Made by a program: the position numbers and the translations under genes
Source: a virus
Lineage: Duplodnaviria > Caudoviricetes
DNA length: 62,623 bases
Strand: one strand, 5' to 3'
Virus record (IMG/VR): IMGVR_UViG_3300042452_000337
Location: 1 to 62,623 of that record
Shown here: piece by piece, positions 1 to 61,516 of the stretch
Layout of the letters: each line of letters opens with the position of its first letter
Numbering within the stretch: position 1 is the stretch's first letter
Notes under the pieces: model-generated
Told to the model about the DNA's origin: nothing
Seen by the model: the letters and a program-made list of their open reading frames with translations, nothing else
Databases searched by the model: none

Positions 1-99
1 CGTGACGCGGCTGGGGGGGCTCGGGGGTAGGGGGTATCGCGTGCGTTCCATCTATATGCGGCACAACGGGTTCCGTTTCACGCTGTCGACCCCGAGCGT
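1..99. repeat. Terminal direct repeat, copy 1 (circular assembly overlap)
   Basis: Identical to 62525-62623. Confidence 0.95.
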
Positions 100-215
100 G
101 AATCGGCCTGCGGAAACCCCACGAATCCCAGTCCATTCCTCGCTGCGGAGTCTGTCTTTTGTCGGAACGGTGATCGGCGTTCGACCGTCGCTGTGACCGG
201 CTGGAGGGACGAACG

Positions 216-455
216 ATGAACGGCAACATGATCTGCGTCTGGAACGGCTACACGATCTCTTGCAACGTCAACGTCGGCGAGATCGCCGTCTACCACCGGG
301 ACGACATGGAATGGTGCCCGGTGTATCGCGGTCATGGCTACGTTTTGCGTGCCACCTACGCCCGCATCTGCGACATGGCTCGCGAAGGTTCGCAGATCGA
401 CCTGTATCGCTACGGCTGGAACGGTCGCGAGGTCGTGGCGGAGTTCTGGGGCTGA
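216..455 (+). CDS. Hypothetical early protein
   Basis: GGAGGG RBS upstream; bounded by repeat copies. Confidence 0.7.
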   Translation: MNGNMICVWNGYTISCNVNVGEIAVYHRDDMEWCPVYRGHGYVLRATYARICDMAREGSQIDLYRYGWNGREVVAEFWG

Positions 456-536
456 AACGCCCGCTGCGGAGTCTGTTTCTTGTCGGCACCACGTTGGTGC
501 TGGCTGTCCCGTGTTCTCTCACTGAGGGAGTGTTCC

Positions 537-653
537 ATGCGTGAGTTCAACTACTGGTACTGCTACATGCGGCTGTCGGGCTACGACCACTGGGCGGGCC
601 TGTTCCTCGCCATCGAATTGCGTCGCGCTGAGCGCAAGGGCTATCTCGTCTGA
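537..653 (+). CDS. Small hypothetical protein (38 aa, MREFNYWYCY...)
   Basis: GAGGGAG RBS; stop codon directly before repeat at 658; below ORF-track cutoff. Confidence 0.6.
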   Translation: MREFNYWYCYMRLSGYDHWAGLFLAIELRRAERKGYLV

Positions 654-760
654 TTCCCCGCTGCGGAGTCTGGATGTCGGTGGGGCTGAGTGTGACAGCC
701 CCATCCTCACCCGCACTTCGCGGGAATGGTTCGATTGTTTCTTTCTCTGAGGAGGTTCCT

Positions 761-1201
761 ATGTCCACTGCTGACTTCAAGGCCGCTGTTCAACTCGCTG
801 TCGAAACCGCTCTCGGGCTGGTCAAGACCGACAAAGCCCCGCCGGTGCCTGCCGCTGATCCCACCCCAGCCCCCGTGCAGAAGCGCAAGGGCAACCCCGA
901 AGCCCTCAAGCGGTGGCGTGAGGAGCAGAAGGCCGCAAAGGCCGCTGGTACGGCTGCGCCTGCCAAGAAGGCGAAGCCCAAGCCGGAGCCTGTCGCTGCC
1001 ATCAAGGCCGACGCCCCCGCGTGGGTCGTGAAGCCTCACACCACGCAGAAGGGCGTGAAGGGCAAGATCATCAACGTCGGCCCGTTCAATGCGTGGCTGG
1101 CCGATGGCGATGAGGAGAAGCGGGTCGCCATCATCGCCGCCATCAACGGCGTGTTCCGCCACGCCCAGTGCAACGACCTCGTGAAGGCCATCTGCGGCTA
1201 A
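761..1201 (+). CDS. Lys/Ala/Pro-rich hypothetical protein, possibly nucleic-acid binding
   Basis: GAGGAGG RBS before ATG 761; basic low-complexity linker. Confidence 0.75.
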   Translation: MSTADFKAAVQLAVETALGLVKTDKAPPVPAADPTPAPVQKRKGNPEALKRWREEQKAAKAAGTAAPAKKAKPKPEPVAAIKADAPAWVVKPHTTQKGVKGKIINVGPFNAWLADGDEEKRVAIIAAINGVFRHAQCNDLVKAICG

Positions 1202-1278
1202 CCGCTGCGGAGTCTGGGATACGGGGCAGGACTGACACTGCCCCCAATTTTGTTCACACCCAACAGGAGAACGTCGCT

Positions 1279-1527
1279 ATGGCTGGTTTGCCGACATACG
1301 CCCCCGAAGAAGCACCGCAGTGGGTTCACGATGTAGTCGAGAACCTGCAACGTGAGCACGACAATCGCGTTGAGGAATACATCGCTCTTGAGAAGATGCT
1401 GCCCGCTGGCAAGGAGCGTGCGGCCATCCATGTCGCCATCAACGCCCTGCGTGAGAGCGGGCACGGCTACATTGCCGACATTCTCGACGGCTACATCAAG
1501 CGACTCGCCGCCAGCCCGCTCGGCTAA
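1279..1527 (+). CDS. Hypothetical protein
   Basis: AGGAGA RBS; TAA abuts repeat at 1528. Confidence 0.7.
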   Translation: MAGLPTYAPEEAPQWVHDVVENLQREHDNRVEEYIALEKMLPAGKERAAIHVAINALRESGHGYIADILDGYIKRLAASPLG

Positions 1528-1595
1528 CCGCTGCGGAGTCTGACCAGTGAGGGCCGACGACGGCTCGGGCAGGTTCGTAGCCTGCCCCCTCACCT

Positions 1596-1631
1596 ACGCC
1601 CATCGCAACTTCGCGGTGGGCGTTTTTGTTT
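1596..1631 (+). terminator. Intrinsic-terminator-like hairpin plus T tract
   Basis: ACGCCCATCGC-AACTTC-GCGGTGGGCGT-TTTTGTTT. Confidence 0.6.
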
Positions 1632-1654
1632 CCCTTGTGTCAAGGAGTTTTCCC

Positions 1655-1858
1655 ATGATCGTGACGAAGTTTCGCGGCAACGACGGGCGTATGTACCTGC
1701 TCACCAACACGGCATCCATGCCCGTGCCGGTGTTCAACGAGGAGAACGCAGACCACGTGGCGTCTGCGCTCATCGTGCAGGAGATCGCGGACGAGATCGC
1801 CCGCCTGGACAGTGAGCCCCAGCCCGCTGCCCGTGCCCTCCCTGTGTTCGTGAGGTAA
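1655..1858 (+). CDS. Hypothetical protein
   Basis: AAGGAG RBS before ATG 1655. Confidence 0.7.
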   Translation: MIVTKFRGNDGRMYLLTNTASMPVPVFNEENADHVASALIVQEIADEIARLDSEPQPAARALPVFVR

Positions 1859-1860
1859 GC

Positions 1861-2091
1861 ATGAGCAACACGCTCACGAAGCCCACTGTGTTCGCGGTCT
1901 GCCTGACACGGCAGGAGTTGCACGCGGCACGTGCCGTCCTGCGCTTCATGCACGGCCACTCACACGAGGCGGAGTTCTGCCCGTCCCTGTCCATGCACGA
2001 GGCGGACGAAGCCCGTCATGCACTCGGGCGGGCACTGACGAAAGTCCACAACGCCCTGCTCGATGCAGGCGGAGCGGACGACACGAAGTAG
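1861..2091 (+). CDS. Hypothetical protein
   Basis: GAGG RBS; follows previous stop by 2 nt. Confidence 0.65.
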   Translation: MSNTLTKPTVFAVCLTRQELHAARAVLRFMHGHSHEAEFCPSLSMHEADEARHALGRALTKVHNALLDAGGADDTK

Positions 2092-2178
2092 CGGCGGCTT
2101 CCCCGCTGCGGAGTCTTGATTCTGACCGGCGGCACGTTGCCGCTGGCTGTCCCTTGTCCCTAGTTCTGAGGAGTTCCC

Positions 2179-2343
2179 ATGCGCAAGAAGAACCATCTGC
2201 CCCACACCCTGCACTTCATCCGCCTCGACAACGCGGCGAAGCAGTTGGGGGCACAGTCGAAGCGTCAATTCGTGGCCGATCTTCGCACGCTGTCAGACGC
2301 ACAGCGCCGCGAGATGGCTGACCTCGTGAAGAAGGAGGGCTGA
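2179..2343 (+). CDS. Small hypothetical protein (54 aa, MRKKNHLP...)
   Basis: GAGGAG RBS; open frame to TGA 2341-2343. Confidence 0.6.
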   Translation: MRKKNHLPHTLHFIRLDNAAKQLGAQSKRQFVADLRTLSDAQRREMADLVKKEG

Positions 2344-2346
2344 TAC

Positions 2347-2577
2347 ATGGAGTGGGTCAAGTGCAACGACAGGCTCCCGGTTCCTGAGCCGGGAATGAAC
2401 GACGCGCTGGTTCTTGCGTTCGCAGAGGGACGCACGTACGCCATGCACTACTACCCGCCGTTCGATGGCTTGCCGGGCGCGTGGGCGTGCGCGCAGGGCG
2501 ATGGCTGGGGTGTTCCAAGTCATCGCGTCACGCACTGGATGCCCATGCCTGCACCTCCCGCTGCGGAGTCTGCGTGA
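2347..2577 (+). CDS. DUF551-like phage protein
   Basis: MEWVKCNDRLP...VTHWMPMPAPP signature. Confidence 0.75.
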   Translation: MEWVKCNDRLPVPEPGMNDALVLAFAEGRTYAMHYYPPFDGLPGAWACAQGDGWGVPSHRVTHWMPMPAPPAAESA

Positions 2578-2702
2578 TGGGCAACAAGTGGAACGACCAG
2601 TGGTGGTCACTGGTCAAGGCCGAACGCATCAAGGAGGAGCAACGTCTGCGGGTGGTTCGCAAGAGCAAGCGAGCCACCCGACGCAAGCAGAAGCAGCGGT
2701 GA
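2577..2702 (+). CDS. Small basic protein
   Basis: TGATG coupling to previous gene; Arg/Lys-rich C-terminus. Confidence 0.5.
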   Translation: MGNKWNDQWWSLVKAERIKEEQRLRVVRKSKRATRRKQKQR

Positions 2703-2731
2703 AGTAGCCGCTGCGGAGTCTGGTTTTCGGC

Positions 2732-2766
2732 AAGGCCATCCCACTTCGGGGTGGCCTTTTCTTTTT
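2732..2766 (+). terminator. Intrinsic-terminator-like hairpin plus T tract
   Basis: AAGGCCATCCC-ACTTC-GGGGTGGCCTT-TTCTTTTT. Confidence 0.65.
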
Positions 2767-2784
2767 CACTGAGGAGATGGGCAC

Positions 2785-4116
2785 ATGCCTACCAATGAGG
2801 ACACTGGCACTCTTGCGGATCGCCTTCTGTCGGAGGTGCCGCAGCACGACGCGAACGGGTTTGCTATCGCTCACCCCTACTTGCATCGTGAAACCAACAC
2901 GCTGTACGGGCCCGATGGATTCAACATCGACGGCTTCAATCTGTCCGGGTTTGACAGGGAAGGGTACGACGAGCGCGGGTTCAACGAAAACAACCTGCAT
3001 CGTGAGACAGGCACGCACTACCACCCCGTCGATCACCTGACATGGGATCGCGGACGATACAGCGAGGACAACAACGACCTCGACTGGCGTGGCCGTGACC
3101 GCTGCGACAACGGCGAGTGCGAGGACATGGAATGTGAGTCCTGCAACCCGCCGGATGACGACGAGGAGCCCGTCGATGCGTCTTTCAACGACCGACTCGA
3201 CTCATACGGCGAGAAAGCACCCCGCAAGTTGGGCTGGTCTGACCACAGCCATCGCACGTTCGACGGCGAGTACGTGGCAGACCGCACGCTCTATGCGGGC
3301 CACGAGATCGAGATGTATGCGGACGACGAGGACTACAGCAGCGTCGAGCACGTTCTCGACCAACTCAACTCCGCGTACCGCAACTTCAAGCCGCAGACGC
3401 GGACGCTACGTTGCGCCATCGCCAAGTACGACGGCTCGCTTGAATACAAAGACGGCGGCTTCGAGGCGGTGACTGTTCCGCTCACACGCGAGCAGACCTA
3501 CGGAATCTTCGGGTCGTTTCGCGTACTGGGTGGCGGCTCCTGCTCGGCGTGGGACTGCGGCCCTGAGGTCGGCCATCACATCCACCTGTCACGTGCAGCG
3601 ATAGGCCCGCTGACGCTTGGCAAGTTGCTTGTGTTCGCCAACGTCGAGTGCAACCAGTTGTTCATCGAGCGGGTGGCCGGGCGCAAGGCGGACTACAACA
3701 CGTTCGCTTCCAAGAAACTGACCGATGCCATGCACGACAGACCCAATGCGGACAGGCACGAGGTCATCAACGTGACGAATCACACCGTCGAGTTCCGCAT
3801 GTTCAAATCCAACCTGCTCAGTCGTGGCATCCTCAAGAACTACGAGTTCGCCGTGTCGCTTGTGCGGTACTGCGAGCAAGTGGACTACGGCAACGGCGAG
3901 GAGCCGGAAGATAGCGACCACCCGCTGCACTACCTGTCGTACCGGCGGTGGCTTGCGGCCAAGCACGCAGAGTACCCGTACCTGCACCAGTTCTTCCTGT
4001 CTCACGGGAGCATGGCCCGCAACTACCGCCAGCACGCGGGCCTCGCCAAGAACGCTGTCCCAACCGAACGCAGCCCGAAGTTCGCCCTCATCCGGACGTC
4101 GGCTATCGGTGCCTGA
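2785..4116 (+). CDS. Putative amidoligase (COOH-NH2 ligase, glutamine-synthetase-like fold) with N-terminal GF/YD repeats
   Basis: GHEIE, DGSL..GFEAVTVP, GHHIHLS and TVEFRMF motifs; adjacent glutamine amidotransferase. Confidence 0.75.
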   Translation: MPTNEDTGTLADRLLSEVPQHDANGFAIAHPYLHRETNTLYGPDGFNIDGFNLSGFDREGYDERGFNENNLHRETGTHYHPVDHLTWDRGRYSEDNNDLDWRGRDRCDNGECEDMECESCNPPDDDEEPVDASFNDRLDSYGEKAPRKLGWSDHSHRTFDGEYVADRTLYAGHEIEMYADDEDYSSVEHVLDQLNSAYRNFKPQTRTLRCAIAKYDGSLEYKDGGFEAVTVPLTREQTYGIFGSFRVLGGGSCSAWDCGPEVGHHIHLSRAAIGPLTLGKLLVFANVECNQLFIERVAGRKADYNTFASKKLTDAMHDRPNADRHEVINVTNHTVEFRMFKSNLLSRGILKNYEFAVSLVRYCEQVDYGNGEEPEDSDHPLHYLSYRRWLAAKHAEYPYLHQFFLSHGSMARNYRQHAGLAKNAVPTERSPKFALIRTSAIGA

Positions 4117-4159
4117 CTTTTCATTCCCATTCATCATTCACACACAGGAGACACACGCT

Positions 4160-4990
4160 ATGTGCCTTGCAATCTACAAGCCCGCCACCACCGCCGCCGA
4201 CTGGGACGCCTACGCGGCGGGCCACAACTCCAACGCCCACTCATGGGGTTTCGCCGCCGTCGTTGACGGCCAACTCGTCACGCGATGCGGCATCGGTACG
4301 TTCGCAGAGTTCAAGCAGGCGTTCGAGCCTTACGCTGACAAGCAGGCCATCATCCACTTCCGATGGGCCACGCACGGCAGCAAGACGGAGGCCAACTGCC
4401 ACCCGTTCCTTGTGAGCGACGACCTCGCCGTCATTCACAACGGCATCATCCACATCGAGTGCAGCGTCCACTCCGACCGCTCGGACACGTGGCACTTCAA
4501 CGAGTTGGTGCTGCGGCCCATGCACTCACGCGATCCGGACTTCTACTCCCGGCCCGATGTGATCTACACGATGGAGCAGGCACACGGGGGCAACAAGTTC
4601 GTGTTCCTGCGTGCGGACGGGGACTGCGGAATCTGGAACGCCGACGCTGGCAAGTGGGAGTCCGACGGCCACTGGTATTCCAACAGTGACTACAAGGGAT
4701 ACAGCATCGGCTATCGCTGGGCCCGCCAGTCCACGCCCGCCGTCACGGCGGAGCCCCGCTGGTGGGAGGCCGACGAGGGAAAGTTCCAGTACGACGAGGA
4801 CACGCTCGGCGGCACCGCCTCCGCAACCATCGACATCGAGGCCGACGACGACGAGATGGATGACGCGATGGAGTACACCGACCTTCGGCTGTACGACCTT
4901 CGCATGTACGGGTTCAGTCGCAAGACCCTGACCGAAGTGTTCGAGTTGACGGGTCACTTGGGGATCGAGGCACTGCACGACGCTATCTAG
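4160..4990 (+). CDS. Class II (Ntn) glutamine amidotransferase
   Basis: N-terminal M-C nucleophile; HFRWATHG, HPF, HNGII, SDT motifs; CAGGAG RBS. Confidence 0.85.
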   Translation: MCLAIYKPATTAADWDAYAAGHNSNAHSWGFAAVVDGQLVTRCGIGTFAEFKQAFEPYADKQAIIHFRWATHGSKTEANCHPFLVSDDLAVIHNGIIHIECSVHSDRSDTWHFNELVLRPMHSRDPDFYSRPDVIYTMEQAHGGNKFVFLRADGDCGIWNADAGKWESDGHWYSNSDYKGYSIGYRWARQSTPAVTAEPRWWEADEGKFQYDEDTLGGTASATIDIEADDDEMDDAMEYTDLRLYDLRMYGFSRKTLTEVFELTGHLGIEALHDAI

Positions 4991-4999
4991 GAGGGAAGC

Positions 5000-5224
5000 A
5001 TGAACGCTTTCTGGTTTCACTACAACAAGCCGCTGTCTCAGCAGCGGGGGCAACCGACGATGACGTTGCATCACAAGGGTGCGTGCGTGTTCGTGCGCCG
5101 CATCGTGTGCAACGTCCCAACCCACAGCCGTGAGCGAACCCGCCAGCCACGCATGGTCATTGCCGGTGTCGGCAACGTGCGTATCTCGGGCGACACGGCG
5201 TACATCACAGGAGATAAGGCATGA
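5000..5224 (+). CDS. Hypothetical protein
   Basis: GGAGGG RBS; tight operon packing. Confidence 0.7.
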   Translation: MNAFWFHYNKPLSQQRGQPTMTLHHKGACVFVRRIVCNVPTHSRERTRQPRMVIAGVGNVRISGDTAYITGDKA

Positions 5225-5556
5225 GTACCACGATCAGTCACGTTGATGCGGTGCGGCAGGCAGTCCGCAACTTCAAGCAGGTGCAGCAAGAGCATCGTGA
5301 GTTCGGGGCGTGCGACACGGAGCCGGACGGACAGTTCCAAGTGCGCATGCACCGTGCAGCACACGGGCTGAGGCCCACCTCCCCGCAGGGGTGCGCCGGA
5401 TGGGAACTATTCAGCGGCATGAAGGGCGTCCGCTCTGCCGCAAGCAGGCTCACCGCTGCCTGTGATGCGGTCATCAAGGCCATCGAATCCTGCCCGACCG
5501 GCGAGCGGGACGAACTGATGGCGTACGTCCGCGACTACTGCTGGCGAGTGTACTGA
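5221..5556 (+). CDS. Hypothetical protein
   Basis: ATGA overlap; AGGAGA RBS. Confidence 0.7.
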   Translation: MSTTISHVDAVRQAVRNFKQVQQEHREFGACDTEPDGQFQVRMHRAAHGLRPTSPQGCAGWELFSGMKGVRSAASRLTAACDAVIKAIESCPTGERDELMAYVRDYCWRVY

Positions 5557-5584
5557 CCACCGCTGCGGAGTCTGGTTGATAGCG

Positions 5585-5619
5585 GCCGGTGGCATGGTGC
5601 CATCGGCTTTCTCTTTTTC
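5585..5619 (+). terminator. Intrinsic-terminator-like hairpin plus T tract
   Basis: GCCGGTGGCA-TGG-TGCCATCGGC-TTTCTCTTTTT. Confidence 0.6.
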
Positions 5620-5630
5620 TGGAGGTTCAC

Positions 5631-6341
5631 ATGAAGATTCCTCAGTTCATCAAGCAACTCGTGAAGGTGTGCGACCACGAGTCCAGTCGCTACGCACTGG
5701 GTGGTATCAAGTGCGAGAGCGATGGCACCACCGCCAAACTCACGGCTACGGACGGTCGCATCCTCGCCTCCGTCCACTACCCGGACGATGACAAGCCGGT
5801 GGATGTGATCGTGGAGACACGGGAACTAGCCCGTGCCCCGTCCGTACTGTGGAAGAAGGGGCCACCGCCTCGCTTCGACGGCAAGGCTTTGTGCGTGGGC
5901 AAAGACAGCACGCCCATCGACACAGTGGACGGCAGGTTCCCCAAGTACGAGTCCATCTTCACCATCCACGACCAGCCCGATGGGTACGTGGCGGTGAACT
6001 TGGACGCTGCCCTGCTTGCCAAGTTGTGCGCCCTGTCGCACGCCATGAACGACGACCAGCACAAGGGCAAGGGCATCACGCTGTTCGTGAAGGACGCTAC
6101 CTCCTGCGTGTTCGCAACCACCAAGAGCGAGGACGGCAAGCACGTTGCCCGCCTCGCCATCATGCCACTGGCTGCGGACGAGGAGGGATACAAGCACGTT
6201 TTCCCGGCTCGTCCCGGTGCGGAGTCTGAGGATCGGGAGCCAGCCCCGCCGCCGGAAGTTCTTGACGACGACGCCATCGCTGAGGCGGTGACTCGCGAGC
6301 CGGAGCCCATCGGGGAATACGGCACGCTCGCCCCCGTCTGA
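5631..6341 (+). CDS. DNA polymerase III beta-clamp-like protein (partial)
   Basis: SRYALGGI, ATDGRILA and GRFPKYESI resemble DnaN central/C-terminal motifs; GGAGG RBS. Confidence 0.65.
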   Translation: MKIPQFIKQLVKVCDHESSRYALGGIKCESDGTTAKLTATDGRILASVHYPDDDKPVDVIVETRELARAPSVLWKKGPPPRFDGKALCVGKDSTPIDTVDGRFPKYESIFTIHDQPDGYVAVNLDAALLAKLCALSHAMNDDQHKGKGITLFVKDATSCVFATTKSEDGKHVARLAIMPLAADEEGYKHVFPARPGAESEDREPAPPPEVLDDDAIAEAVTREPEPIGEYGTLAPV

Positions 6342-6366
6342 CTGTCACTACAAGGAGGGCAACTCA

Positions 6367-6462
6367 ATGTCACACGGATGGACACACACGGAGATCGAAC
6401 TGTTCCTGCTCATGGCACTGGTGCTGATGAAGGCACTGGTGGTGTGGGCCAAACTCGACTGA
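6367..6462 (+). CDS. Small membrane peptide (31 aa)
   Basis: AAGGAGG RBS; hydrophobic stretch LFLLMALVLMKALVVW. Confidence 0.5.
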   Translation: MSHGWTHTEIELFLLMALVLMKALVVWAKLD

Positions 6463-6474
6463 AAGGAAACGAAC

Positions 6475-6759
6475 ATGGCTCGTGTTCTTGACGACATCGT
6501 GCATTACTTCAAGCAGCGTGGAGTGGACATACTCGCCACGAAAAAGAACCTCTACACGCTCTGCCTCGACCACTGCGACAGCGTGTATGAGTCGCTGCAA
6601 GCACGCTCGTACCCCAAGCCCGACCTCATCCGCTCGGTGATCGAGGCGGAGCAGCACGTGCTGATGCTTGAGGAGGAACTGCGGGAGGCGTGGGCTGACA
6701 AGCGTCGCCTCATGCAGCAACTCGCCGCCGCCCTCAAGAAGGAGGAGTCCAATGCATGA
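6475..6759 (+). CDS. Hypothetical coiled-coil protein
   Basis: AAGGA RBS; helical charged C-terminus. Confidence 0.7.
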   Translation: MARVLDDIVHYFKQRGVDILATKKNLYTLCLDHCDSVYESLQARSYPKPDLIRSVIEAEQHVLMLEEELREAWADKRRLMQQLAAALKKEESNA

Positions 6760-7120
6760 CCTCACCCCACGTGAGCGAGAGATTCTCACGCTCATCGCCC
6801 GCTCGATAGAAGCCAACGGCTACCAGCCCACGTACCGGGACATCGCCCGGCACTTGGGGTGGGCAAGTCTCGGCTACCTCCACCACCTCTCCCGCTCACT
6901 CACCCGCAAGGGCGTGGTGACCGTGAACGGGGCGAGGGCGTGGTCGTTTGATTGGAAGTCCTACCTCACACAGGAGAAAAAGCATGACGCTCGCAGAACT
7001 GATGGAACTGTTGCGGCCCGTAGCACCCGACGCAATGTACGACGAGGACGGGGAGGGGCAGGTGATCGTGTTCACGGGACTCCTCCTCGAACCCGACGCC
7101 GACTGGCAGCGGCCCGCTGA
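6752..7120 (+). CDS. LexA-type winged-helix DNA-binding protein without peptidase domain
   Basis: LTPREREIL...GYQPTYRDIARHLG...L.RKG matches the LexA N-domain pattern. Confidence 0.75.
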   Translation: MHDLTPREREILTLIARSIEANGYQPTYRDIARHLGWASLGYLHHLSRSLTRKGVVTVNGARAWSFDWKSYLTQEKKHDARRTDGTVAARSTRRNVRRGRGGAGDRVHGTPPRTRRRLAAAR

Positions 7121-7148
7121 TTGTGACCTTACCCACTACTCAATGTAG
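6984..7148 (+). CDS. Hypothetical protein overlapping the LexA-like C-terminus
   Basis: CAGGAG RBS before ATG 6984. Confidence 0.5.
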   Translation: MTLAELMELLRPVAPDAMYDEDGEGQVIVFTGLLLEPDADWQRPADCDLTHYSM

Positions 7149-7156
7149 GTGTACCT

Positions 7157-7348
7157 ATGTATACTCTCGACCATCGTCCGATCCCCACTGCGTCCCTCAC
7201 CCTCAGCCCACGCGAACTCGAACTCATCGAAATCTCCCTGCGAGATTCCGCTGCGGAGTCTGAGGAGTGTGGCGAAGGGCAGGCGGTGGAGTTCACCGTT
7301 CTGCTACGCAAGTTCGTGAAGGCGCACGCCTCACTCATCACCCACTAA
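7157..7348 (+). CDS. Hypothetical protein
   Basis: ORF in operon; contains repeat copy 7248. Confidence 0.6.
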   Translation: MYTLDHRPIPTASLTLSPRELELIEISLRDSAAESEECGEGQAVEFTVLLRKFVKAHASLITH

Positions 7349-7358
7349 GGAGGTTCCC

Positions 7359-8225
7359 ATGACCGACGCTATCTCAATCGGTGCCCGCTCTGGCGGTGTC
7401 TGCATCCTCAATGCGGCGACCGCTCGGCGTGACACCGTGTTCGCTGCGGCCGATGCGGTTGGCTGCGGCAGGTACGTGCCTGCCCAGCCAGCCACTACCA
7501 CCACCCTCTCGATTGCCATGAAGGCGGTGGGCCGCACGCTGTATGGCAAGAAGCGCAAGCAGCCGATCAGTACCCGTCACATCGACGGCGACTCGTTCGA
7601 GTGCGTGCGTGTCGTGCCGTCGAGCGACCGCAACGACTACGTTCACCTGTTCTCTGCCCGGATCGACCGGGACTGGAACGTGAAGGTACTGGCACACAAC
7701 CACGACCAGCAATCGTGGACGCTGGATGCCGCACTCAGCAGTGCGGTCGTGACCATGCGTGACTTCCTGCCGTCGCCCATCGTGTCGCAGGTGGCGGTCA
7801 AGATGCTCACCTCATGGAAGGGTGTGCTGCTCAAAGACGACGGCGGTGTGTGGTTCCTTGCCGACGAGCATCTCGACAAGTACCGCACGTTCGCCGCTGG
7901 CCTGCGACAGAACGGCAGTAGCCCGAACTTCACACTCACCACCTTCCCCATCGACGCCAACCCTGACACGGTGGCACACGTGATCCAGAAGGTGCGTGAC
8001 ACGGTGAACGAGGGCGTCCAGCAGATCATGCAGGATGTGCTGGAGGCAGGCGGCGGGATGAACGACCGCTCGATCAACGTCCGCCTGTCCCGTGCCAACA
8101 AACTGCTCGCCCTCGTGGAGCAGTACCAGTCCCTCACCGGCATCGCTATGCCGGAACTGACCGATGCAATCGAGCAGTGCAAGCAGGCGGTTGCGGTCAA
8201 CCGTCTCCTCGCTGCTTCTGTCTGA
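7359..8225 (+). CDS. Hypothetical protein (288 aa) upstream of the AAA/VWA pair
   Basis: AAGGAGG RBS; long ORF. Confidence 0.8.
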   Translation: MTDAISIGARSGGVCILNAATARRDTVFAAADAVGCGRYVPAQPATTTTLSIAMKAVGRTLYGKKRKQPISTRHIDGDSFECVRVVPSSDRNDYVHLFSARIDRDWNVKVLAHNHDQQSWTLDAALSSAVVTMRDFLPSPIVSQVAVKMLTSWKGVLLKDDGGVWFLADEHLDKYRTFAAGLRQNGSSPNFTLTTFPIDANPDTVAHVIQKVRDTVNEGVQQIMQDVLEAGGGMNDRSINVRLSRANKLLALVEQYQSLTGIAMPELTDAIEQCKQAVAVNRLLAASV

Positions 8226-8253
8226 TCCCAACCCCACTGAAAGGAACTCAGTC

Positions 8254-8661
8254 ATGGCTATCAAGTACGACGTTGAGCAGTTCGTCAAGGAGTACACGGA
8301 GGCGGCTGCGGCTGGCCTGTCCACCAAAGAGTTGGCTGCGTTGATCGGCATTACGCAGTCCTCCCTGTGGTCGCGAGTTGATCGGTGCCGTCGCTTCGGC
8401 ATCGACCTTCCCGTGCTGCGTGGCGGACACAAACTCCCGCCCGCCACACGGGCTGCGAAGAAGGCGAAGTATCGCCGCACTCGCACCCGCAAACTGCGGA
8501 AGGCTGGGGCTGTGTCCGCCACGCCCAAGCCGCAGCCCGCAGCCAGCCTGCCCCACCCCGACATCGAGGCGTTGTCGGAGCGGGTGGCGGACAAGGTGTA
8601 CGACCGGCTGCGTGAGACGCTCCGGTTCCAGTTCTTCGTCGGCCCCGAAATCCCGGCCTAA
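8254..8661 (+). CDS. Putative HTH DNA-binding protein with basic tail
   Basis: STKELAALIGITQSSLWSRV HTH-like segment; AAGGA RBS. Confidence 0.6.
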   Translation: MAIKYDVEQFVKEYTEAAAAGLSTKELAALIGITQSSLWSRVDRCRRFGIDLPVLRGGHKLPPATRAAKKAKYRRTRTRKLRKAGAVSATPKPQPAASLPHPDIEALSERVADKVYDRLRETLRFQFFVGPEIPA

Positions 8662-8745
8662 TCGCCGGTGCGGAGTCTAGTTTCTGGGGAGGGGTGGTAA
8701 CGTACTGCCCCTCCCCTTTCCCTTCACTTGAGGAGTTGATCCATC

Positions 8746-9849
8746 ATGGCCCGTACCAATCTCGGCAATACCCCTGCGTTCCTTGCCTGTCAGGTGGTGC
8801 CCGTCCTTGTGCGTGGCGGCACCGGCGTCGGCAAGTCATCAACGTGGGAGGCCCTTGCCGCTGCACTCAAGCGGACATTCATCCCGCTGCTCGGTGCAAC
8901 CCACCTGCCCGAAGACTTCTCCGGCTACCCGACGCCAGACCACAAGGCACAGGTCACTCGCATGATGGCCTCGTCGTGGGTCGCCAAGACTCGTGACGGC
9001 AAGGCACTCGTGCATGTGGACGAGGTGACGAACGTCCCTCCTGCCACACAGGGTGGCCTGCTCTCCGTGATCTCGGAGCGGCGAGTCGGTGACGAGGTGA
9101 TGCCCGAGTCCACCATCGTGGTGGGTTCATGCAACCCGCCGGAACTGTGCCCAAATGCAGTGCCTCTGTCGCCTGCCATGCGGGCACGGTTCTTCCACCA
9201 CGACTGGGTTGTGGACTACGACCACTGGTTCGCTGGCCTGCGTGCTGGCTGCGAGTGGACGGCACCGGAGTTTCCCATTGTCCCGGATCACTGGCGTGAC
9301 TTCCTCCCTCAGTTCGGCTCGCTCGTGGAGGCGTTCCTCCGTGCGGCCCCCGACTGCCGGGAGAAGTTGCCGACCGATGACGAGACGATGAGTTTCCCCA
9401 ACTGCCGCACGTGGACGTACCTCGTCAAGTGCTTCGCCGCTGCGGAGGCGTGCGGGTACGAGCGTGAGCACGCCATCTACAAGGCACTCGCACTAGGCAA
9501 CGTGGGCGAGGGCGTCGGCGGTGAGTTCCTCCGCTACTGGCGGAACCTTGACCTCGCCAACCCGGAGGCGTTCCTCTCGGGCGAGGAGAAGTACGAGTAC
9601 GTGAAGCGGCCGGATGCCAACATCTGCCTGCTCACTGGTCTGGTCAAGGGGCTGCGTGATAACACCAGCGAGGAGCGTTGGGTCAACGCAGCGAAGGTGT
9701 TCATCACCATCGGGGAACAGGAGATCGAGTCGTTCCTCATGCAGTTCAAGTCCTTGTGGCGTCCGGTCAAGGACGGTGGCGTGCGGCCCGATGGCTGGAC
9801 TCCCCCGAAGGATGTGCTTGCGAAGATGATGGCTCTGGTTCAGTCGTGA
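8746..9849 (+). CDS. MoxR-like AAA+ ATPase
   Basis: Walker A GGTGVGKS, Walker B VHVDE, sensor CNP, MRARF. Confidence 0.85.
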   Translation: MARTNLGNTPAFLACQVVPVLVRGGTGVGKSSTWEALAAALKRTFIPLLGATHLPEDFSGYPTPDHKAQVTRMMASSWVAKTRDGKALVHVDEVTNVPPATQGGLLSVISERRVGDEVMPESTIVVGSCNPPELCPNAVPLSPAMRARFFHHDWVVDYDHWFAGLRAGCEWTAPEFPIVPDHWRDFLPQFGSLVEAFLRAAPDCREKLPTDDETMSFPNCRTWTYLVKCFAAAEACGYEREHAIYKALALGNVGEGVGGEFLRYWRNLDLANPEAFLSGEEKYEYVKRPDANICLLTGLVKGLRDNTSEERWVNAAKVFITIGEQEIESFLMQFKSLWRPVKDGGVRPDGWTPPKDVLAKMMALVQS

Positions 9850-9871
9850 TTCACACACACAGGAGATACCA

Positions 9872-10090
9872 ATGGGACGCATACTTCAATGGGAAACAGT
9901 CGTGATGAGCCGCGAGAGTGCGGAACATATTTGGAAATCGTTCGAGCCGACAGACCCACTGATCGCTTTCTATATCCGCAAAGACCTCGACACGCAGGAC
10001 GGCCACTTCGTGAACGTCGAACTTCCGTTGAGCGATGTGGCGAAGGTGAAAGAAGTTGTTCGTAAGTTGGCAGAAGGGAGGGCTGAGTGA
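9872..10090 (+). CDS. Hypothetical protein
   Basis: CAGGAG RBS. Confidence 0.7.
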   Translation: MGRILQWETVVMSRESAEHIWKSFEPTDPLIAFYIRKDLDTQDGHFVNVELPLSDVAKVKEVVRKLAEGRAE

Positions 10091-10314
10091 TGTGCGTGTG
10101 GTATGAGGTCGATCAAGGCGAAGAGCGATGCCTCCCCGACAAGGAGAGGCGTGTGCTTGTCGCACAGGATGATGGCTACATAGAGATGGCGTACTGGAAC
10201 GGTCAAGACTTTGAGTTTGACTGGCCGACACTGGCCGTCGCACCAGCACCTCGCGTGCGGTACTGGTGCGACCTGCCAGAGACACCTACGGAGGACGGCG
10301 AAGCGCCGTACTGA
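10090..10314 (+). CDS. Hypothetical protein (DUF551-like)
   Basis: LP...VLV...VRYWCDLP pattern. Confidence 0.6.
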   Translation: MCVWYEVDQGEERCLPDKERRVLVAQDDGYIEMAYWNGQDFEFDWPTLAVAPAPRVRYWCDLPETPTEDGEAPY

Positions 10315-10315
10315 C

Positions 10316-11719
10316 ATGACACCACGACAACTACTGGGCCAAGCACGGGTGCATACCTTCGAGTACGTGCCCTACCTTGCGTCCTACATCTACAGCCTGC
10401 GTGAGCAGGAGACACCGGGCATCGGCACGGCTGCGGTGGACGAGGCGGGCAACCTCTACTGGTGCCCGAAGTTCGTGTCGGAGATCGGCCGTGACCAGAC
10501 GGCGTACCTCGTGGCACACGAGGCACTGCATCTGGGGTACGACCACCACTCACGGGCGAGGGAGATCATCGGTGAACACGCCGACGAGTTCCATCGCTTC
10601 GTGTGCAACGTGGCGGGCGACCTCGTGATCGAGCAGACCCTTCACATGATGCGGCACCTGCGACCGGAGGGGTGCGTGCATCTAGGCTGCAAGATCGAGG
10701 CGTGGGGTATCACGCTGGACTTCCCCGAGAACAAGTCCATGCAGGAGTACTACCGGCTGATCCTTGAGAAACTCAAGGGCCAGCAATCACCCAAGCAGGA
10801 GCAAAGCAATGACGGCCAGCACGGCAATGACAATCAGAATCCCGGAGATGCGAACGCTGACAGCGATGGAGAAACTGAGGGCAGTCAGGGCGATGGCTCG
10901 CAGGTTCCGCCTCCAAGCGGAGCGGGACAGCCTCCGTCTGGGCAGGGCCAAGTACCACCACCGCCCGGTGCGCCGGGTACGGGTGGCTCGTGCGGCGACG
11001 GTCAGGCCCGTCCGTACGAGATAGAGAACGACGGCTCGTGGGAAACATGGGGCAGCGACATGGCCGCAGCCAAAGCGGAGGAGGCCATCGCTGAGTACGA
11101 GCAGCAGCACGGCAAGGGTTCGGTTCCCGGCAGCATCAAGCAGGCACTCGACTGCAAGTTGCGTCCGCAGCCAGACCCCTTTGACAAACTGCGGTCGGCT
11201 GTGTGTACGAGCGTGGCATCGCCGGTCGGCGGGCGGGACTTCTCGCACCGCCGCCGGTCACGCAAGCAGCCGCCGGGTGACGACGACCCGCTGCTGCATG
11301 GCCGCATCACAGTGCAGCCTCACGCCGTCGTGATCGTGGATACCTCCGGCTCGATGATGGACAAGGACACGCAAGCCCGTGCCCTGTCAGTAATCAGTCA
11401 GGGCATCCGCAAACTGTCCCGCGTCAAGGTGTTCTGTGCCGACACGCACGTGCGCTCACACGCTCTGGTCGCTACGACGAAGGCGTTCGAGTGGCACGGC
11501 GGTGGCGGCACCAGCATGGCACGTGCCATCGCGGAGGTGGATCGCACGGACAAGCCGGACTCCATCATCCTCGTCACCGATGCCATCACCGCCTGGCCCG
11601 CCAAGAAGCCACGTGCCCGCGTGGTCGTCGCGTACACGGGCGTGGTCGGCAGTACCTATCACAAGCGCATCCCATCGTGGTGCCGCACTGTTCCACTGGA
11701 AGGAGGAGCCAATGCCTGA
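10316..11719 (+). CDS. Metallopeptidase-like plus VWA domain protein (DUF2201-like), MoxR partner
   Basis: HEALH (HExxH), MIDAS DTSGSM, GGGGT, ILVTD. Confidence 0.85.
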   Translation: MTPRQLLGQARVHTFEYVPYLASYIYSLREQETPGIGTAAVDEAGNLYWCPKFVSEIGRDQTAYLVAHEALHLGYDHHSRAREIIGEHADEFHRFVCNVAGDLVIEQTLHMMRHLRPEGCVHLGCKIEAWGITLDFPENKSMQEYYRLILEKLKGQQSPKQEQSNDGQHGNDNQNPGDANADSDGETEGSQGDGSQVPPPSGAGQPPSGQGQVPPPPGAPGTGGSCGDGQARPYEIENDGSWETWGSDMAAAKAEEAIAEYEQQHGKGSVPGSIKQALDCKLRPQPDPFDKLRSAVCTSVASPVGGRDFSHRRRSRKQPPGDDDPLLHGRITVQPHAVVIVDTSGSMMDKDTQARALSVISQGIRKLSRVKVFCADTHVRSHALVATTKAFEWHGGGGTSMARAIAEVDRTDKPDSIILVTDAITAWPAKKPRARVVVAYTGVVGSTYHKRIPSWCRTVPLEGGANA

Positions 11720-12602
11720 GGTCAAGCGGCGGGTTCGTACTTACGAGCAACTGGATCGGATGCTGTGCAAGCGGCCGACACGAGGGAACTTCCTTGTGTC
11801 CACCAATGTGTACGGCAAGGTCAATGCGTCTGCGGACTTCACGAACTCCAGCCCGGAGATCGTGCTGAAGTACGTGGCACAGGGAGGCCACTACTTCTTC
11901 GAGGTCGCCCGTGTGTGGCGTGTGTCGGGCGGCGACACCGTGTACAGGGTGTCTGGGTGCAGGGCGGAGATACGCAAGGAGGCGGTCGGCCGGAAGCGTT
12001 ATCGCAAGTACGTCCAGCGGCTCACCCCTCGTGACATCACTGGCCGCACGCCACGTGAACACGACGTTCGGTGGTATCGGATACGGGATGGGGTGGCGAC
12101 GCAGATCGAGGGCCCGCCGAAAGGCAGGCCGTTCTGCTGGACGTCCTTGCCTCAGTGCATCACGCCCTCGCTCAAGGAGTGGCTTGCCTCGCACGGCACC
12201 CTGCCCAAGTTCGTAGCCCGCAGCAGGGCGTTCGCCATCAACCTGCGGAGGGGACTGGCGGACGGACTGCCGTGCCAAGTGCAGTTGCTTACGCACCGGC
12301 AGGCTCCGGCAGGCGGGCTCAGCAGCAAGACGAGTTCCCTGTGGCTACACGTTTGCACGCCACCGACGGGCACGAGCAACGGGCGGCGGCTTGTGATCGA
12401 GACGTTCACGCACTCCCGAGAGTCCCGCACCCACTTCCACGTGGACGGCGACTACGGGATGCGGCACTCGCAGTTCGCTGCCCTTGAGCCAAAGGGGCCG
12501 CACGGCTGGCGAGTGGTTGACCGATGGCCGTGTGCCCGCGACGCCATCGCTGGCATCAAAGAGTGGGTTCTTTCGACGGTCTACATTCCCGGCCCCATGT
12601 GA
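11712..12602 (+). CDS. Hypothetical protein
   Basis: GGAGGAG RBS before ATG 11712. Confidence 0.7.
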   Translation: MPEVKRRVRTYEQLDRMLCKRPTRGNFLVSTNVYGKVNASADFTNSSPEIVLKYVAQGGHYFFEVARVWRVSGGDTVYRVSGCRAEIRKEAVGRKRYRKYVQRLTPRDITGRTPREHDVRWYRIRDGVATQIEGPPKGRPFCWTSLPQCITPSLKEWLASHGTLPKFVARSRAFAINLRRGLADGLPCQVQLLTHRQAPAGGLSSKTSSLWLHVCTPPTGTSNGRRLVIETFTHSRESRTHFHVDGDYGMRHSQFAALEPKGPHGWRVVDRWPCARDAIAGIKEWVLSTVYIPGPM

Positions 12603-12613
12603 GGAGCACCATC

Positions 12614-12769
12614 ATGTTCACTTGGATCATTCGTATTGCACTGTTTTGTTTCATGGCGTGGACGATGAGCATTCCCGGAACGGAGTGCTATATCTCACCA
12701 GGCATCTGGTCGTGCATCATCCTCGCCTACTGGTTCTGCAATCACCCCATGCACACGAAGTGGAGGTAA
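12614..12769 (+). CDS. Small membrane protein
   Basis: GAGGAG RBS; two hydrophobic segments. Confidence 0.55.
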   Translation: MFTWIIRIALFCFMAWTMSIPGTECYISPGIWSCIILAYWFCNHPMHTKWR

Positions 12770-12771
12770 TC

Positions 12772-13512: not shown

Positions 13513-13957
13513 TGCGTGGGTCGCAGCCTGCTTGCTCGCCAATCTCCCGGAGAGACAGGCCCCGATAGAACCGGGCTTGGATCAACTTGCGGGACTTGGC
13601 GGGCAGGCGGGCGATGCACACGTGGAGCCTGCCTGTCAGCCCCTTCTGGGATGTGACCAGCACCTCCGCCAACTCCATCGGCACCCTGTCCGGTGAGTCG
13701 TAGCGGGCCCGGCGGTTCCGGTCGATCTCCTTGAGGATCGCATTGCGGATGGCGGTCGAGAAGTACGTCGTGACCTTCGACTGGGCAGGGTCGTACGTCA
13801 GGGCGGCACGGCAGATGGCAAGGTATGCCACGCTCGTGGAATCAATCGCCGCCACCTGCCTGCGAAGCGTGGGGTAGCGGCAGCGGAAGGCGGCCATCGC
13901 CTTCGGCACCACCGGCAGTGCGGATTCTACGAGCCTCTGCTGTTCGGGCGTGAGCAT
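13439..13957 (-). CDS. Sigma-70 family RNA polymerase sigma factor (regions 2 and 4)
   Basis: YDP...TTYFSTAIRNAILKEI; RFYRGLSLREIGEQAG...TIRRR HTH. Confidence 0.8.
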   Translation of the reverse strand: MLTPEQQRLVESALPVVPKAMAAFRCRYPTLRRQVAAIDSTSVAYLAICRAALTYDPAQSKVTTYFSTAIRNAILKEIDRNRRARYDSPDRVPMELAEVLVTSQKGLTGRLHVCIARLPAKSRKLIQARFYRGLSLREIGEQAGCDPRTIRRRLASALEILQRLLESEPPPP

Positions 13958-14041
13958 CCATGCGGCCAATCAACGGGACGTACCGTTTCATGGGAGCATG
14001 GACAGGAGGCTCTCGATAGTCTCTCCCTTCGCTCAAGAGCG

Positions 14042-56148: not shown

Positions 56149-56149
56149 G

Positions 56150-56425: not shown

Positions 56426-56428
56426 GCG

Positions 56429-61514: not shown

Positions 61515-61516
61515 CG

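What the first reader, a model, noticed from the sequence alone, without database searches (positions are those of the whole stretch)
461..8745. Recurring leader architecture: motif, GC hairpin, pyrimidine tract, RBS
Seen: intergenic motif copies are followed by stems at about 484, 679, 1223, 1566/1596, 2127, 2732, 5585 and 8686. Several end in T-rich tracts (1596, 2732, 5585) just before the next gene's RBS. Established: a hairpin plus U-tract is an intrinsic terminator. Inference: each early gene block is gated by a terminator placed downstream of the motif, which fits an antitermination or attenuation cascade. The alternative is that the motif is a promoter and the stems are 5' stabilisers or processing sites.
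Basis: partly seen in the sequence, partly recalled or inferred. Interest (0 to 1): 0.75.

Follow-up and report, generated by a model that had tools for sequence, protein, structure and literature searches.

The report
Repeated promoter-like motif plus RNA hairpin
An uncultured lake phage puts the same 15-letter signal, usually followed by a gene-specific RNA hairpin, in front of nearly every early gene; it is most likely a phage-specific transcription start with a tuning or stabilising hairpin, and its reader protein is unknown.

Summary
CCGCTGCGGAGTCTG occurs 12 times (at most 2 mismatches), all on the coding strand, between 140 and 8679 of a complete 62.6-kb phage genome. Nine intergenic copies are followed 4-9 nt later by a GC hairpin, a pyrimidine tract, an RBS and a start codon. 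About 20 related uncultured phages have the same plan. More distant relatives keep the plan, and some of the same hairpins, but use five other core motifs. The hairpins covary and fold better on the sense strand, so they act as RNA. Only about a fifth (26 of 120) have a canonical U-tract, so "a terminator gates every block" is true only for some leaders. My best reading (about 0.45) is a compact phage-specific promoter that starts at a fixed pyrimidine-purine step 6-7 nt after the motif, at the foot of the hairpin. The hairpin would then be a 5' stabiliser or, with a U-tract, an attenuator. The units also mark mosaic boundaries, like PeSL cassettes of T4-like phages and the promoter/RNase III pairs of T7. 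Rivals are an RNA-level antitermination or processing site, and stoperator-like repressor sites.

The parts
140..154 (+). Motif copy 1 (TCGCTGCGGAGTCTG, 1 mismatch), in the divergent control region before the first gene of the arm (ATG 216).
   Evidence: alignment of this region in 5 phages
155..207 (+). Leader 1 hairpin (long, imperfect). Its 3' arm reaches the RBS. No U-tract.
461..475 (+). Motif copy 2 (exact), 5 nt after the stop at 455.
482..504 (+). Hairpin B of leader 2, no U-tract. Paralogous to the 2126 hairpin, with compensatory stem changes.
658..672 (+). Motif copy 3 (exact).
679..724 (+). Two hairpins (679-705 and 710-724), no U-tract, before gene 761-1201.
1202..1216 (+). Motif copy 4 (exact), abutting the stop codon.
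1223..1244 (+). Hairpin with a weak T-rich tail (CAATTTTGTT).
1528..1542 (+). Motif copy 5 (exact), abutting the stop codon.
1547..1633 (+). Compound hairpin 1547-1593, then a canonical terminator-like hairpin 1596-1623 with TTTTTGTTT.
   Evidence: z -5.4
2103..2117 (+). Motif copy 6 (1 mismatch, ...GTCTT).
2126..2146 (+). Hairpin, no U-tract. The same hairpin follows a different core motif in relative G002.
2558..2572 (+). Motif copy 7 (exact), overlapping the end of ORF 2347-2577. No hairpin. Its GGAG lies 8 nt before ATG 2577.
2708..2722 (+). Motif copy 8 (exact).
2732..2769 (+). Canonical terminator-like hairpin (11 bp) plus T-tract, before the amidoligase-like/GATase-like operon. Conserved with compensatory changes in relatives.
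5560..5574 (+). Motif copy 9 (exact).
5584..5620 (+). Terminator-like hairpin plus T/C tract, before the clamp-like gene (ATG 5631).
6214..6228 (+). Motif copy 10 (1 mismatch) inside ORF 5631-6341, about 150 nt before gene 6367. The same intragenic copy is in G001. No convincing hairpin.
7248..7262 (+). Motif copy 11 (exact) inside ORF 7157-7348, 96 nt before gene 7359. Specific to the window; orthologues have only a related sequence there.
7278..7305 (+). Hairpin inside ORF 7157-7348, kept with compensatory changes in 5 phages.
8665..8679 (+). Motif copy 12 (2 mismatches, CCGGTGCGGAGTCTA), before the AAA ATPase gene (ATG 8746).
8686..8725 (+). 14-bp hairpin plus C/T tract. Covariation shown on 15 orthologous leaders.

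Best explanation
Each unit is a compact, phage-specific transcription start signal followed by a gene-specific leader hairpin.

The signal spans about 35 nt. It holds a weak upstream (T)GATTYC, the invariant 15-mer, a T-rich 6-nt spacer and a fixed pyrimidine-purine step. I infer that host RNA polymerase is directed there by a factor not yet recognised (a phage sigma-like protein or activator, or a host factor). It would start at the purine 6-7 nt after the 15-mer, which is where the hairpin begins.

The hairpin acts as sense-strand RNA. That much is shown by sequence comparison. Its roles are inferred: a 5'-terminal stabiliser of the unit's own mRNA, and a 3' end or attenuator for transcripts arriving from upstream where a U-tract follows (about a fifth of leaders). 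Identical promoters with different hairpins would let each early gene block have its own expression level.

Because the 15-mer is identical at every boundary, the units also serve as recombination linkers that shuffle early genes between related phages. The boundary pattern is shown; the mechanism is inferred.
For: 1. Copy number and orientation. 12 copies, all on the coding strand, lie in the 9-kb early arm. The same holds in four related genomes: 14 forward/0 reverse, 1/11, 10/0 and 11/1. 20 of 35 examined loci carry at least 3 copies.

2. Position. The first copy sits before the first gene of the arm, in the divergent control region. Copies inside ORFs lie upstream of the next start (2558, 6214, 7248). 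Hairpin-less copies lie 20-29 nt before an ATG.

3. Fixed geometry in 164 distinct contexts. T at +17 in 125, a pyrimidine at +20 in 150 and a purine at +21 in 154. The hairpin starts at a median of 6 nt after the motif.

4. Hairpin prevalence and type. 120 of 142 distinct W-type leaders have a hairpin, but only 26 of those 120 have at least 5 T after it. A general terminator role therefore fails.

5. RNA-level hairpins. 137 of 186 leaders fold better on the sense strand and 48 on the antisense strand (Wilcoxon p 2e-14). Controls split 195 to 202. In the ATPase leader, 6 of 15 pairs show compensatory changes and a U.G pair is kept in 13 of 15 sequences.

6. Type switching. Relatives carry other cores in the same slots: CTCGTTCGGCAGGTG, TTTCAGGGGYTGGCGAGT..GGCGATT..CTGGAGAAC, and a (GATC)3 box. 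Some keep the same hairpins. This is how promoters co-vary with their polymerase in T7-like phages (that comparison is recalled, not from a call).

7. No E. coli-type sigma-70 promoter in 1-12000 (0 found, 1.7 expected) and only one chance-level hit, inside a gene, in 56000-62623.

8. Mosaic boundaries. 19 of 49 homology blocks start within 12 nt of a motif (random mean 0.66, maximum 5). 12 of them cover the leader only.

9. Precedents in print. PeSL cassettes (PMC2839356, abstract, section 14 and matched passages read; PMC4122927, abstract only). T7 promoters with the start site just upstream of an RNase III site (PMC6938266, passages).
Against: - No phage RNA polymerase or sigma factor was found with Pfam, PHROGs, NCBIfam, PDB sequence search, the protein atlas, or simple catalytic-motif patterns. 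The one universal early protein I folded has no known fold match.
- The motif does not match sigma-70, sigma-54, ECF or sigma-28 consensus sequences. That comparison was by eye, with consensus sequences recalled.
- Leaders with true terminators (1596, 2732, 5584) would stop transcripts that start 20-90 nt upstream unless read-through occurs.
- In the G006, L179 and L188 types a second hairpin lies just upstream of the core. Its arms covary within one genome and show T.G but no A.C pairs. So RNA spanning the motif from upstream matters there.
- No RNA data exist for this phage. The host is unknown.
Confidence: 0.45

Rival explanations
1. RNA-level site on a polycistronic early transcript. The motif is single-stranded RNA, flanked by hairpins, and is bound by a phage-encoded protein. 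That protein either lets polymerase pass the following hairpin (distributed nut/RAT-like antitermination, the reader's idea) or cuts there. A cut would leave the downstream mRNA with a protective 5' hairpin.
For: - The hairpins are sense-strand RNA structures.
- In three motif types a covarying hairpin A with T.G wobbles lies directly upstream of the core, so the core is transcribed from upstream.
- Terminators inside the arm must be read through.
- In the most distant type (L190/L191) most copies have a hairpin plus U-tract.
- Type switching fits a co-evolving phage RNA-binding protein.
- A block conserved across all motif types lies 190-250 nt upstream of copy 1 and could hold the single promoter.
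Against: - 94 of 120 hairpins lack a U-tract.
- Hairpin-less copies exist directly before an RBS.
- Exact copies inside ORFs (7248; G001 locus position 4537) would cut or regulate within coding RNA.
- In the W type, most copies would leave the upstream fragment without a 3' hairpin. Only 18 of 158 upstream contexts have the complementary arm.
- Where two hairpins are present, the terminator is 68 nt from the motif (1528 to 1596).
- No RNA-binding or RNase domain was found in the early arm.
- No Rfam family matches.
Confidence: 0.3
2. Stoperator-like operator sites. A phage DNA-binding protein binds the asymmetric 15-mer at every early unit. A candidate is the LexA-type winged-helix protein at 6752-7120, found only in phages with this motif. 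Binding would shut initiation or block elongation, as the L5-type repressor does in Cluster A mycobacteriophages.
For: - The sites are asymmetric, short, intergenic and locked to the direction of transcription, as described for stoperators (PMC9283540, passages read).
- The LexA-like protein and two small neighbours occur in nearly all W-type phages. They were not found in the fetched early arms of the other motif types.
- The core sits where a spacer operator would sit between a -35-like TTGACG and a T-rich box in G002.
Against: - The sites are confined to the early arm. None lie in the 48-kb structural arm.
- The tight coupling to a following RNA hairpin and the fixed pyrimidine-purine step are not explained.
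- There is no clear lysogeny module. The only recombinase is a small serine recombinase unique to this phage.
- The winged-helix proteins are 42-72% identical while the motif stays invariant.
- L175, which has a near-W motif, lacks a detectable homologue.
Confidence: 0.1
3. The motif is mainly a recombination linker or a mobile promoter-less cassette end (MITE- or attC-like), with no direct role in expression.
For: Homology blocks start at the motif, and 12 blocks cover the leader alone. Early gene content is highly mosaic.
Against: - All 15 positions are at or near invariance across about 160 distinct contexts, with a sharp drop in the flanks.
- Orientation is strict and spacing to the gene start is fixed.
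- Whole-genome replacement of the core by another motif in relatives points to a sequence-specific reader.
- No transposase or integron-type integrase is present.
Confidence: 0.05

Closest known systems
PeSL (promoter-early stem-loop) cassettes of T4-like phages (PMC2839356; PMC4122927)
   Same: A repeated composite unit between small, variable early genes: stop codon, conserved promoter-type motif, stem-loop, SD and start. The units mark the boundaries of insertions, deletions and replacements between related phages.
   Different: PeSL promoters match the host sigma-70 consensus. Their stem-loop lies within or upstream of the promoter, before the start site. Here the motif matches no consensus I compared it with, the hairpin lies downstream of it, and the core changes type between relatives. 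Mini-circles and promoter activity were shown for PeSLs; nothing is shown here.
T7 class II/III promoters paired with RNase III sites (phi3.8/R3.8, phi6.5/R6.5; PMC6938266, citing Dunn and Studier 1983)
   Same: The order is stop, identical phage promoter, structured RNA element just downstream of the start site, RBS, gene. It is repeated about 10-17 times in one orientation. Promoter sequence is specific to the phage type.
   Different: T7 encodes its own RNA polymerase; none was found here. T7 RNase III substrates are longer, bulged duplexes. Here the stems are simple, of 7-20 bp.
Stoperators of Cluster A mycobacteriophages (PMC9283540)
   Same: A 13- to 15-bp asymmetric site in short intergenic spaces. 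Orientation is tied to transcription, there are many copies, and the site co-varies with the phage type.
   Different: Stoperators are spread over the whole genome of temperate phages and carry no attached hairpin. Here the sites are limited to the early arm and each is tied to an RNA hairpin.
Lambda-type nut sites (boxA plus boxB) and intrinsic-terminator attenuators
   Same: A linear conserved box next to a hairpin, upstream of terminators that must be passed.
   Different: Two nut sites per genome with a conserved boxB loop. Here there are 12 sites with unrelated hairpin sequences, and most are not terminators.

Membership tests
Intrinsic (Rho-independent) terminator | GC-rich stem-loop followed immediately by a U-tract | tested here: inconclusive
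   Met at 1596, 2732 and 5584 (and weakly at 8686 and 1223) in the window. Across the family, 26 of 120 hairpins have at least 5 T in the next 8 nt and 35 of 120 have at least 4. The majority do not meet it.
PeSL cassette | Host sigma-70 consensus promoter (-35/-10) inside the repeat | tested here: not met
   0 sigma-70-like sites in 1-12000. The extended consensus shows no TTGACA/TATAAT-type boxes at proper spacing. Only the G002 type has a TTGACG box.
PeSL cassette | Stem-loop joined to the promoter motif between small early ORFs, ending in SD and start | tested here: met
PeSL cassette | Repeats coincide with the boundaries of gene indels or replacements between related phages | tested here: met
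   19 of 49 homology-block starts lie at a motif, against a random mean of 0.66. Gene content is mosaic.
Single-subunit (T7-like) or virion RNA polymerase promoter | A phage-encoded RNA polymerase is present | tested here: not met
   No RNA polymerase family hit in 56 ORFs (Pfam), 47 (PHROGs) or 23 (NCBIfam). No PDB sequence hits for the 1231-, 1154- and 785-aa proteins. No DxDxD motif in any large unannotated protein (its one occurrence is in the 987-aa fn3-repeat tail protein), and no motif B pattern in any. A very divergent enzyme cannot be excluded.
Stoperator / repressor system | Asymmetric sites in intergenic spaces, oriented with transcription | tested here: met
Stoperator / repressor system | Sites distributed across the genome of a temperate phage that encodes the cognate repressor | tested here: not met
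   Sites occur only in the early arm. No integrase-type lysogeny module is conserved in the family. Binding by the winged-helix protein cannot be tested here.
Lambda nut site | Conserved boxB hairpin loop recognised by N, few copies downstream of early promoters | tested here: not met
   Hairpin sequences and loops differ between leaders. There are 12 copies.
Any Rfam RNA family (ribozymes, leaders, riboswitches) | Covariance-model match | tested here: not met
   0 matches at E up to 1 in 1-15000.

The most novel reading that the evidence does not exclude
The family carries an unrecognised specificity system. A phage-encoded factor with no detectable similarity to RNA polymerases or sigma factors (or to known antiterminators, none of which showed up in the family searches) reads a 15-18-nt signal next to an RNA hairpin. 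It has diversified into at least six specificity types, while the gene-specific hairpins stayed in place. This would be a new way of redirecting, or licensing, host RNA polymerase at every early gene.
Probability: 0.3. Interest if true: 0.75.

Novelty: new variant of a known kind. Interest (0 to 1): 0.55.

Why it matters
Repeated promoter-plus-hairpin cassettes have been described, in what I read, for T4-like phages (host sigma-70 promoters) and T7-like phages (own polymerase). This is the same logic in an uncultured freshwater podophage family that has neither signal.

The invariant core is swapped for another in each sub-lineage, while orthologous hairpins persist. That gives a clean comparative handle on three questions:
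- how a phage marks its early transcription units;
- how identical start signals can be tuned gene by gene through leader hairpins;
- how conserved linkers drive shuffling of early (host-takeover) genes.

Tried and rejected
- **RNA evidence.** No RNA holder is listed for this sequence among public runs. I did not lay reads, because all 18 listed holders are DNA contigs.
- **Cultured relatives.** None found by megablast of 1-9000 or by tblastn of the portal protein against the phage collection.
- **Host.** Capsid relatives lie on contigs of 25-55 kb, about phage size, in MAGs labelled 'bacterium', uncultured Rubrivivax and Pirellulaceae. These are probably binned phage contigs, so they are not usable. 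The W motif is not enriched in those MAGs. The G006-type motif is confined to the phage contig of its MAG: 9 hits there and 7 scattered 2-3-mismatch hits elsewhere.
- **Phage RNA polymerase or sigma factor.** Not found. The 1231-aa protein is Ala/Pro-rich and low in complexity. The 785-aa protein looks like a repeat-bearing fibre. The atlas neighbours of the 1154-aa protein are unnamed viral clusters, and one carries LPD38.
- **The universal 288-aa early protein as a sigma-like reader.** The model is confident (pLDDT 86.7) but has no PDB fold match at E up to 0.001. Its divergence does not track motif identity inside the W type.
- **Sigma-54, ECF, sigma-28, extended -10 and Bacteroidetes-type readings of the motif.** I compared these by eye with recalled consensus sequences. 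None fits all motif types. The A-to-C variant (GGCGTCTG, 6 of 164 contexts) argues against a sigma-70-type -10 reading of GAGTCT.
- **N-terminal extensions starting right after the motif's GGAG** (TTG 480, ATG 674 and GTG 1547 are in frame in the window). Rejected: the G001 orthologue of the 658 leader runs into a stop (sequence).
- **Other ideas.** Chi-like, integron attC-like and self-cleaving ribozyme readings were considered and dropped: no Rfam hit, no fitting recombinase, and core switching between close relatives.
- **Earlier notes of this scan.** Nothing on this genome or on look-alike stretches.

Full report
**What the window is.** The window is one complete IMG/VR virus record of 62,623 bp. 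Its 99-bp end repeat is probably an assembly overlap of a circular or permuted genome. Genes run on the + strand from about 200 to 13,500. These are small ORFans plus an amidoligase-like/GATase-like pair, a clamp-like protein, a LexA-type winged-helix protein, HTH proteins, and a MoxR-type ATPase with a DUF2201/VWA partner. Genes run on the - strand from 62,500 down to 14,500: SSB, capsid, terminase-like, portal, tail and fibre proteins, three large unannotated proteins, an exonuclease, ERF, a helicase and RusA/HNH. No tRNA genes and no Rfam family in 1-15,000 were found. No cultured phage resembles it.

**The observation.**
- CCGCTGCGGAGTCTG has 23 matches at up to 3 mismatches, against 4.8 expected and a maximum of 11 in shuffles.
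- The 12 matches at up to 2 mismatches between 140 and 8679 are all on the + strand. Eight of them are exact.
- Sub-words of the motif are the commonest 9- to 12-mers in the genome.
- Nine copies are intergenic and start 0-11 nt after the previous stop codon.
A pyrimidine-rich tract, a GAGG-type RBS and a start codon come next.
- Three copies lie in or at the end of ORFs (2558, 6214, 7248), each upstream of the next gene.
- Canonical terminator-like tails follow the stems at 1596, 2732 and 5584, with weaker ones at 8686 and 1223. They do not follow the stems at 482, 679 and 2126.

**Relatives with the same motif.** A scan of viral contigs with the 14-mer found other records with many copies. 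Four related genomes hold 10-14 copies each, clustered and in one orientation: 14/0, 1/11, 10/0 and 11/1 forward/reverse. I then queried with an alignment of the ATPase that follows the last unit. That returned 39 loci, each with up to 10 kb of early arm. Of the 35 loci with more than 1.5 kb upstream, 20 carry at least 3 W-type copies. Some of these loci are the same records as G001-G005.

In the window plus 19 such loci there are 184 copies and 142 distinct leaders:
- 120 of 142 have a hairpin of -10 kcal/mol or better starting within 15 nt of the motif (median 6 nt).
- Only 26 of those 120 have at least 5 T in the next 8 nt; 35 have at least 4.
- 22 of 142 have no hairpin. Of these, 11 have a start codon 20-29 nt after the motif and 7 more have none found within 130 nt.

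In 164 distinct contexts the 15 core positions are at or near invariance: 92 are exact, and the main variants are ..GTCCG..GTCTT, TCG.. and GGCGTCTG. The flanks add a weak A/T-T-T at -5 to -3, S at -10/-9, T at +17 (125 of 164), a pyrimidine at +20 (150 of 164) and a purine at +21 (154 of 164).

**Relatives with other motifs.** More distant relatives keep the plan but not the core.

| Lineage | Capsid identity to the window | ATPase identity | Core, and copies seen |
|---|---|---|---|
| G002 | 58% | 37% | CTCGTTCGGCAGGTG; 5 copies on the coding strand (plus one 3-mismatch hit far upstream), preceded by TTGACG-like hexamers |
| G006 and L181/L184/L186/L187 | 69% (G006) | 56-57% | TTTCAGGGGYTGGCGAGT; 9 in G006 |
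| L179 | not measured | 56% | ..GGGCCGGCGATT |
| L188/L193 | not measured | 52% | TTTCAGGCACTGGAGAAC |
| L175 and L177 | not measured | 73% and 71% | CGATGCGGAGTC and CCGATCCGGAGTC |
| L190/L191 | not measured | 32-33% | a (GATC)3 box, then a UUCG hairpin and a U-tract |

Orthologous leaders keep their hairpins across this switch. The GGCGGCACGTTGCCGC hairpin of window 2126 follows the G002-type core in G002. The terminator before the amidoligase-like gene persists as well. In the MAG that holds the G006 contig, its motif is confined to that contig.

**The hairpins act as RNA.**
- In 186 distinct leaders of all types, the 60 nt after the core fold better on the sense strand in 137 cases and on the antisense strand in 48. 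The means are -24.6 and -21.7 kcal/mol (Wilcoxon p 2e-14). Four hundred control windows show no bias (195 against 202) and a mean of -17.9. Leaders share ancestry, so the p-value is descriptive only.
- In 15 orthologous ATPase leaders, 6 of 15 pairs show compensatory double changes, and one U.G pair is kept in 13 of 15.
- In the G006, L179 and L188 types a second, small hairpin A lies directly upstream of the core (for example CCCYTG-WTTT-CAGGGG). Its outer pairs covary within a single genome: GACCCTG/CAGGGTC, GCCCTTG/CAAGGGC and, read off the sequence, AACCC/GGGTT. The pairs listed show T.G and no A.C (small sample).
- In the W type only 18 of 158 upstream contexts have the matching arm (CCGCAG), against 102 of 5000 random windows.

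**Mosaicism.** Early gene content differs widely between these phages. In blastn of the window against four relatives, 19 of 49 homology blocks begin within 12 nt of a motif (random mean 0.66, maximum 5). None of the 49 ends there. Twelve blocks cover only the motif and leader. One example is the leader at 2708: it is 81% identical to that of G003, while the protein downstream is 29% identical.

**Who reads the motif?** No RNA polymerase or sigma family was detected, and the large unannotated proteins have no PDB sequence hit. They also lack simple catalytic-motif patterns. The 1231-aa protein is a low-complexity Ala/Pro-rich protein. The atlas gave no RNA polymerase lead. E. coli-type promoters are absent from the early arm and from the divergent region. 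The LexA-like protein and two small neighbours occur in W-type phages only. The one universal early protein apart from the ATPase (288 aa) gave a confident model with no known fold. G002 has a two-HTH protein at the equivalent place. None of these can be tied to the motif with the tools I had.

**Weighing the models.** A terminator gate at every unit fails on the counts, since 94 of 120 hairpins lack a U-tract, and on the hairpin-less units. A promoter reading explains the following:
- the strict orientation;
- the first copy lying ahead of the first gene;
- copies inside ORFs that lie upstream of the next start;
- hairpin-less copies 20-29 nt before an ATG;
- the fixed pyrimidine-purine step at the foot of the hairpin;
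- the change of core between lineages.

It also has direct precedents. PeSL cassettes of T4-like phages are sigma-70 promoters joined to stem-loops; they act as terminators and recombination linkers (PMC2839356, abstract, section 14 and matched passages; PMC4122927, abstract). In T7, the start sites of phi3.8 and phi6.5 lie just upstream of RNase III sites, and the paper calls that arrangement common in the genome (PMC6938266, passages).

Three things count against the promoter reading. There is no identifiable polymerase or factor. True terminators sit downstream of the putative starts. And hairpin A in some types shows that RNA from upstream runs across the motif. For that reason an RNA-level reading (a local or reloading antiterminator site, or a processing site between protective hairpins) keeps about 0.3. 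A stoperator-like operator reading (features from PMC9283540, passages) keeps about 0.1.

**Limits.** I had no RNA data, no host and no cultured relative. The supplements of the cited papers were not opened. Consensus sequences of alternative sigma factors, and the behaviour of 5'-terminal stem-loops as mRNA stabilisers, are recalled and not taken from a call.

Noticed in passing
window 62470-62524 joined to 1-30 (end repeat 1-99 = 62525-62623): A block GGAAAAAATCCAGGAGG(G)GAACGT, then about 10 AT-rich nt, then a G-run (GGGGGGGCTCGGGG). It is conserved in phages of every motif type, about 190-250 nt upstream of the first motif copy. It could be a shared host-type promoter, an origin or a packaging site. 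The record's ends fall inside it.
   Followed up: partly
window 86-111: Inverted repeat TTCACGCT-N10-AGCGTGAA between the conserved block and motif copy 1. The outer TTCACG/CGTGAA halves are partly kept in the four other W-type phages aligned. It looks like an operator for a dimeric regulator.
   Followed up: partly
window 7157-7348: The 63-aa ORF holds a hairpin (7278-7305) kept by compensatory changes in five phages. In this phage only, it also holds an exact motif copy created inside the coding sequence. The region may be a former leader that has been overprinted.
   Followed up: partly
window 2785-4990: An amidoligase-like (weak PHROG hit) and class-II glutamine-amidotransferase-like gene pair. 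It is conserved in most relatives, including G002, always behind the strongest leader terminator.
   Followed up: no
window 5631-6341: A DnaN/sliding-clamp-like protein (weak NCBIfam and PHROG hits) in a phage in which no DNA polymerase was detected.
   Followed up: no
window 7359-8225 and 8746-11719: A 288-aa protein present in every relative, next to a MoxR-type AAA ATPase and a DUF2201/VWA protein. Its AlphaFold model is confident (pLDDT 86.7) but has no PDB fold match at E up to 0.001.
   Followed up: partly
window 33901-37596 (-), 28523-31987 (-), 15180-17537 (-): A 1231-aa Ala/Pro-rich low-complexity protein. A 1154-aa protein whose atlas neighbours are unnamed viral clusters, one of them with LPD38. 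A 785-aa protein with internal repeats (WxDKSGNGR) that looks like a fibre. The first two are probably ejected or internal virion proteins.
   Followed up: partly
window 56683-56648 (-): A canonical 14-bp terminator with TTTTCGTT in the capsid-gene region of the structural arm. Ordinary intrinsic terminators are therefore in use in this phage.
   Followed up: no
window 12484-13512: A serine recombinase with its resolvase domain at residues 100-248 of the longest ORF, so probably a small invertase or resolvase. It was not found in the fetched arms of the relatives.
   Followed up: no
L190 3981-9908 and L191 889-4415: In the most distant relatives the repeated unit is TGATCGATCGATCG..., then a conserved CCCC-TTCG-GGGG hairpin, then GGCCACGGGGTTTT. 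Here the hairpin sequence itself is conserved and most copies carry a U-tract.
   Followed up: partly
window 2759-2779 and 5609-5624: In the minimum-energy folds the pyrimidine tract pairs weakly with the following GGAG/GAGGAG ribosome site, so the tract might also modulate translation.
   Followed up: no
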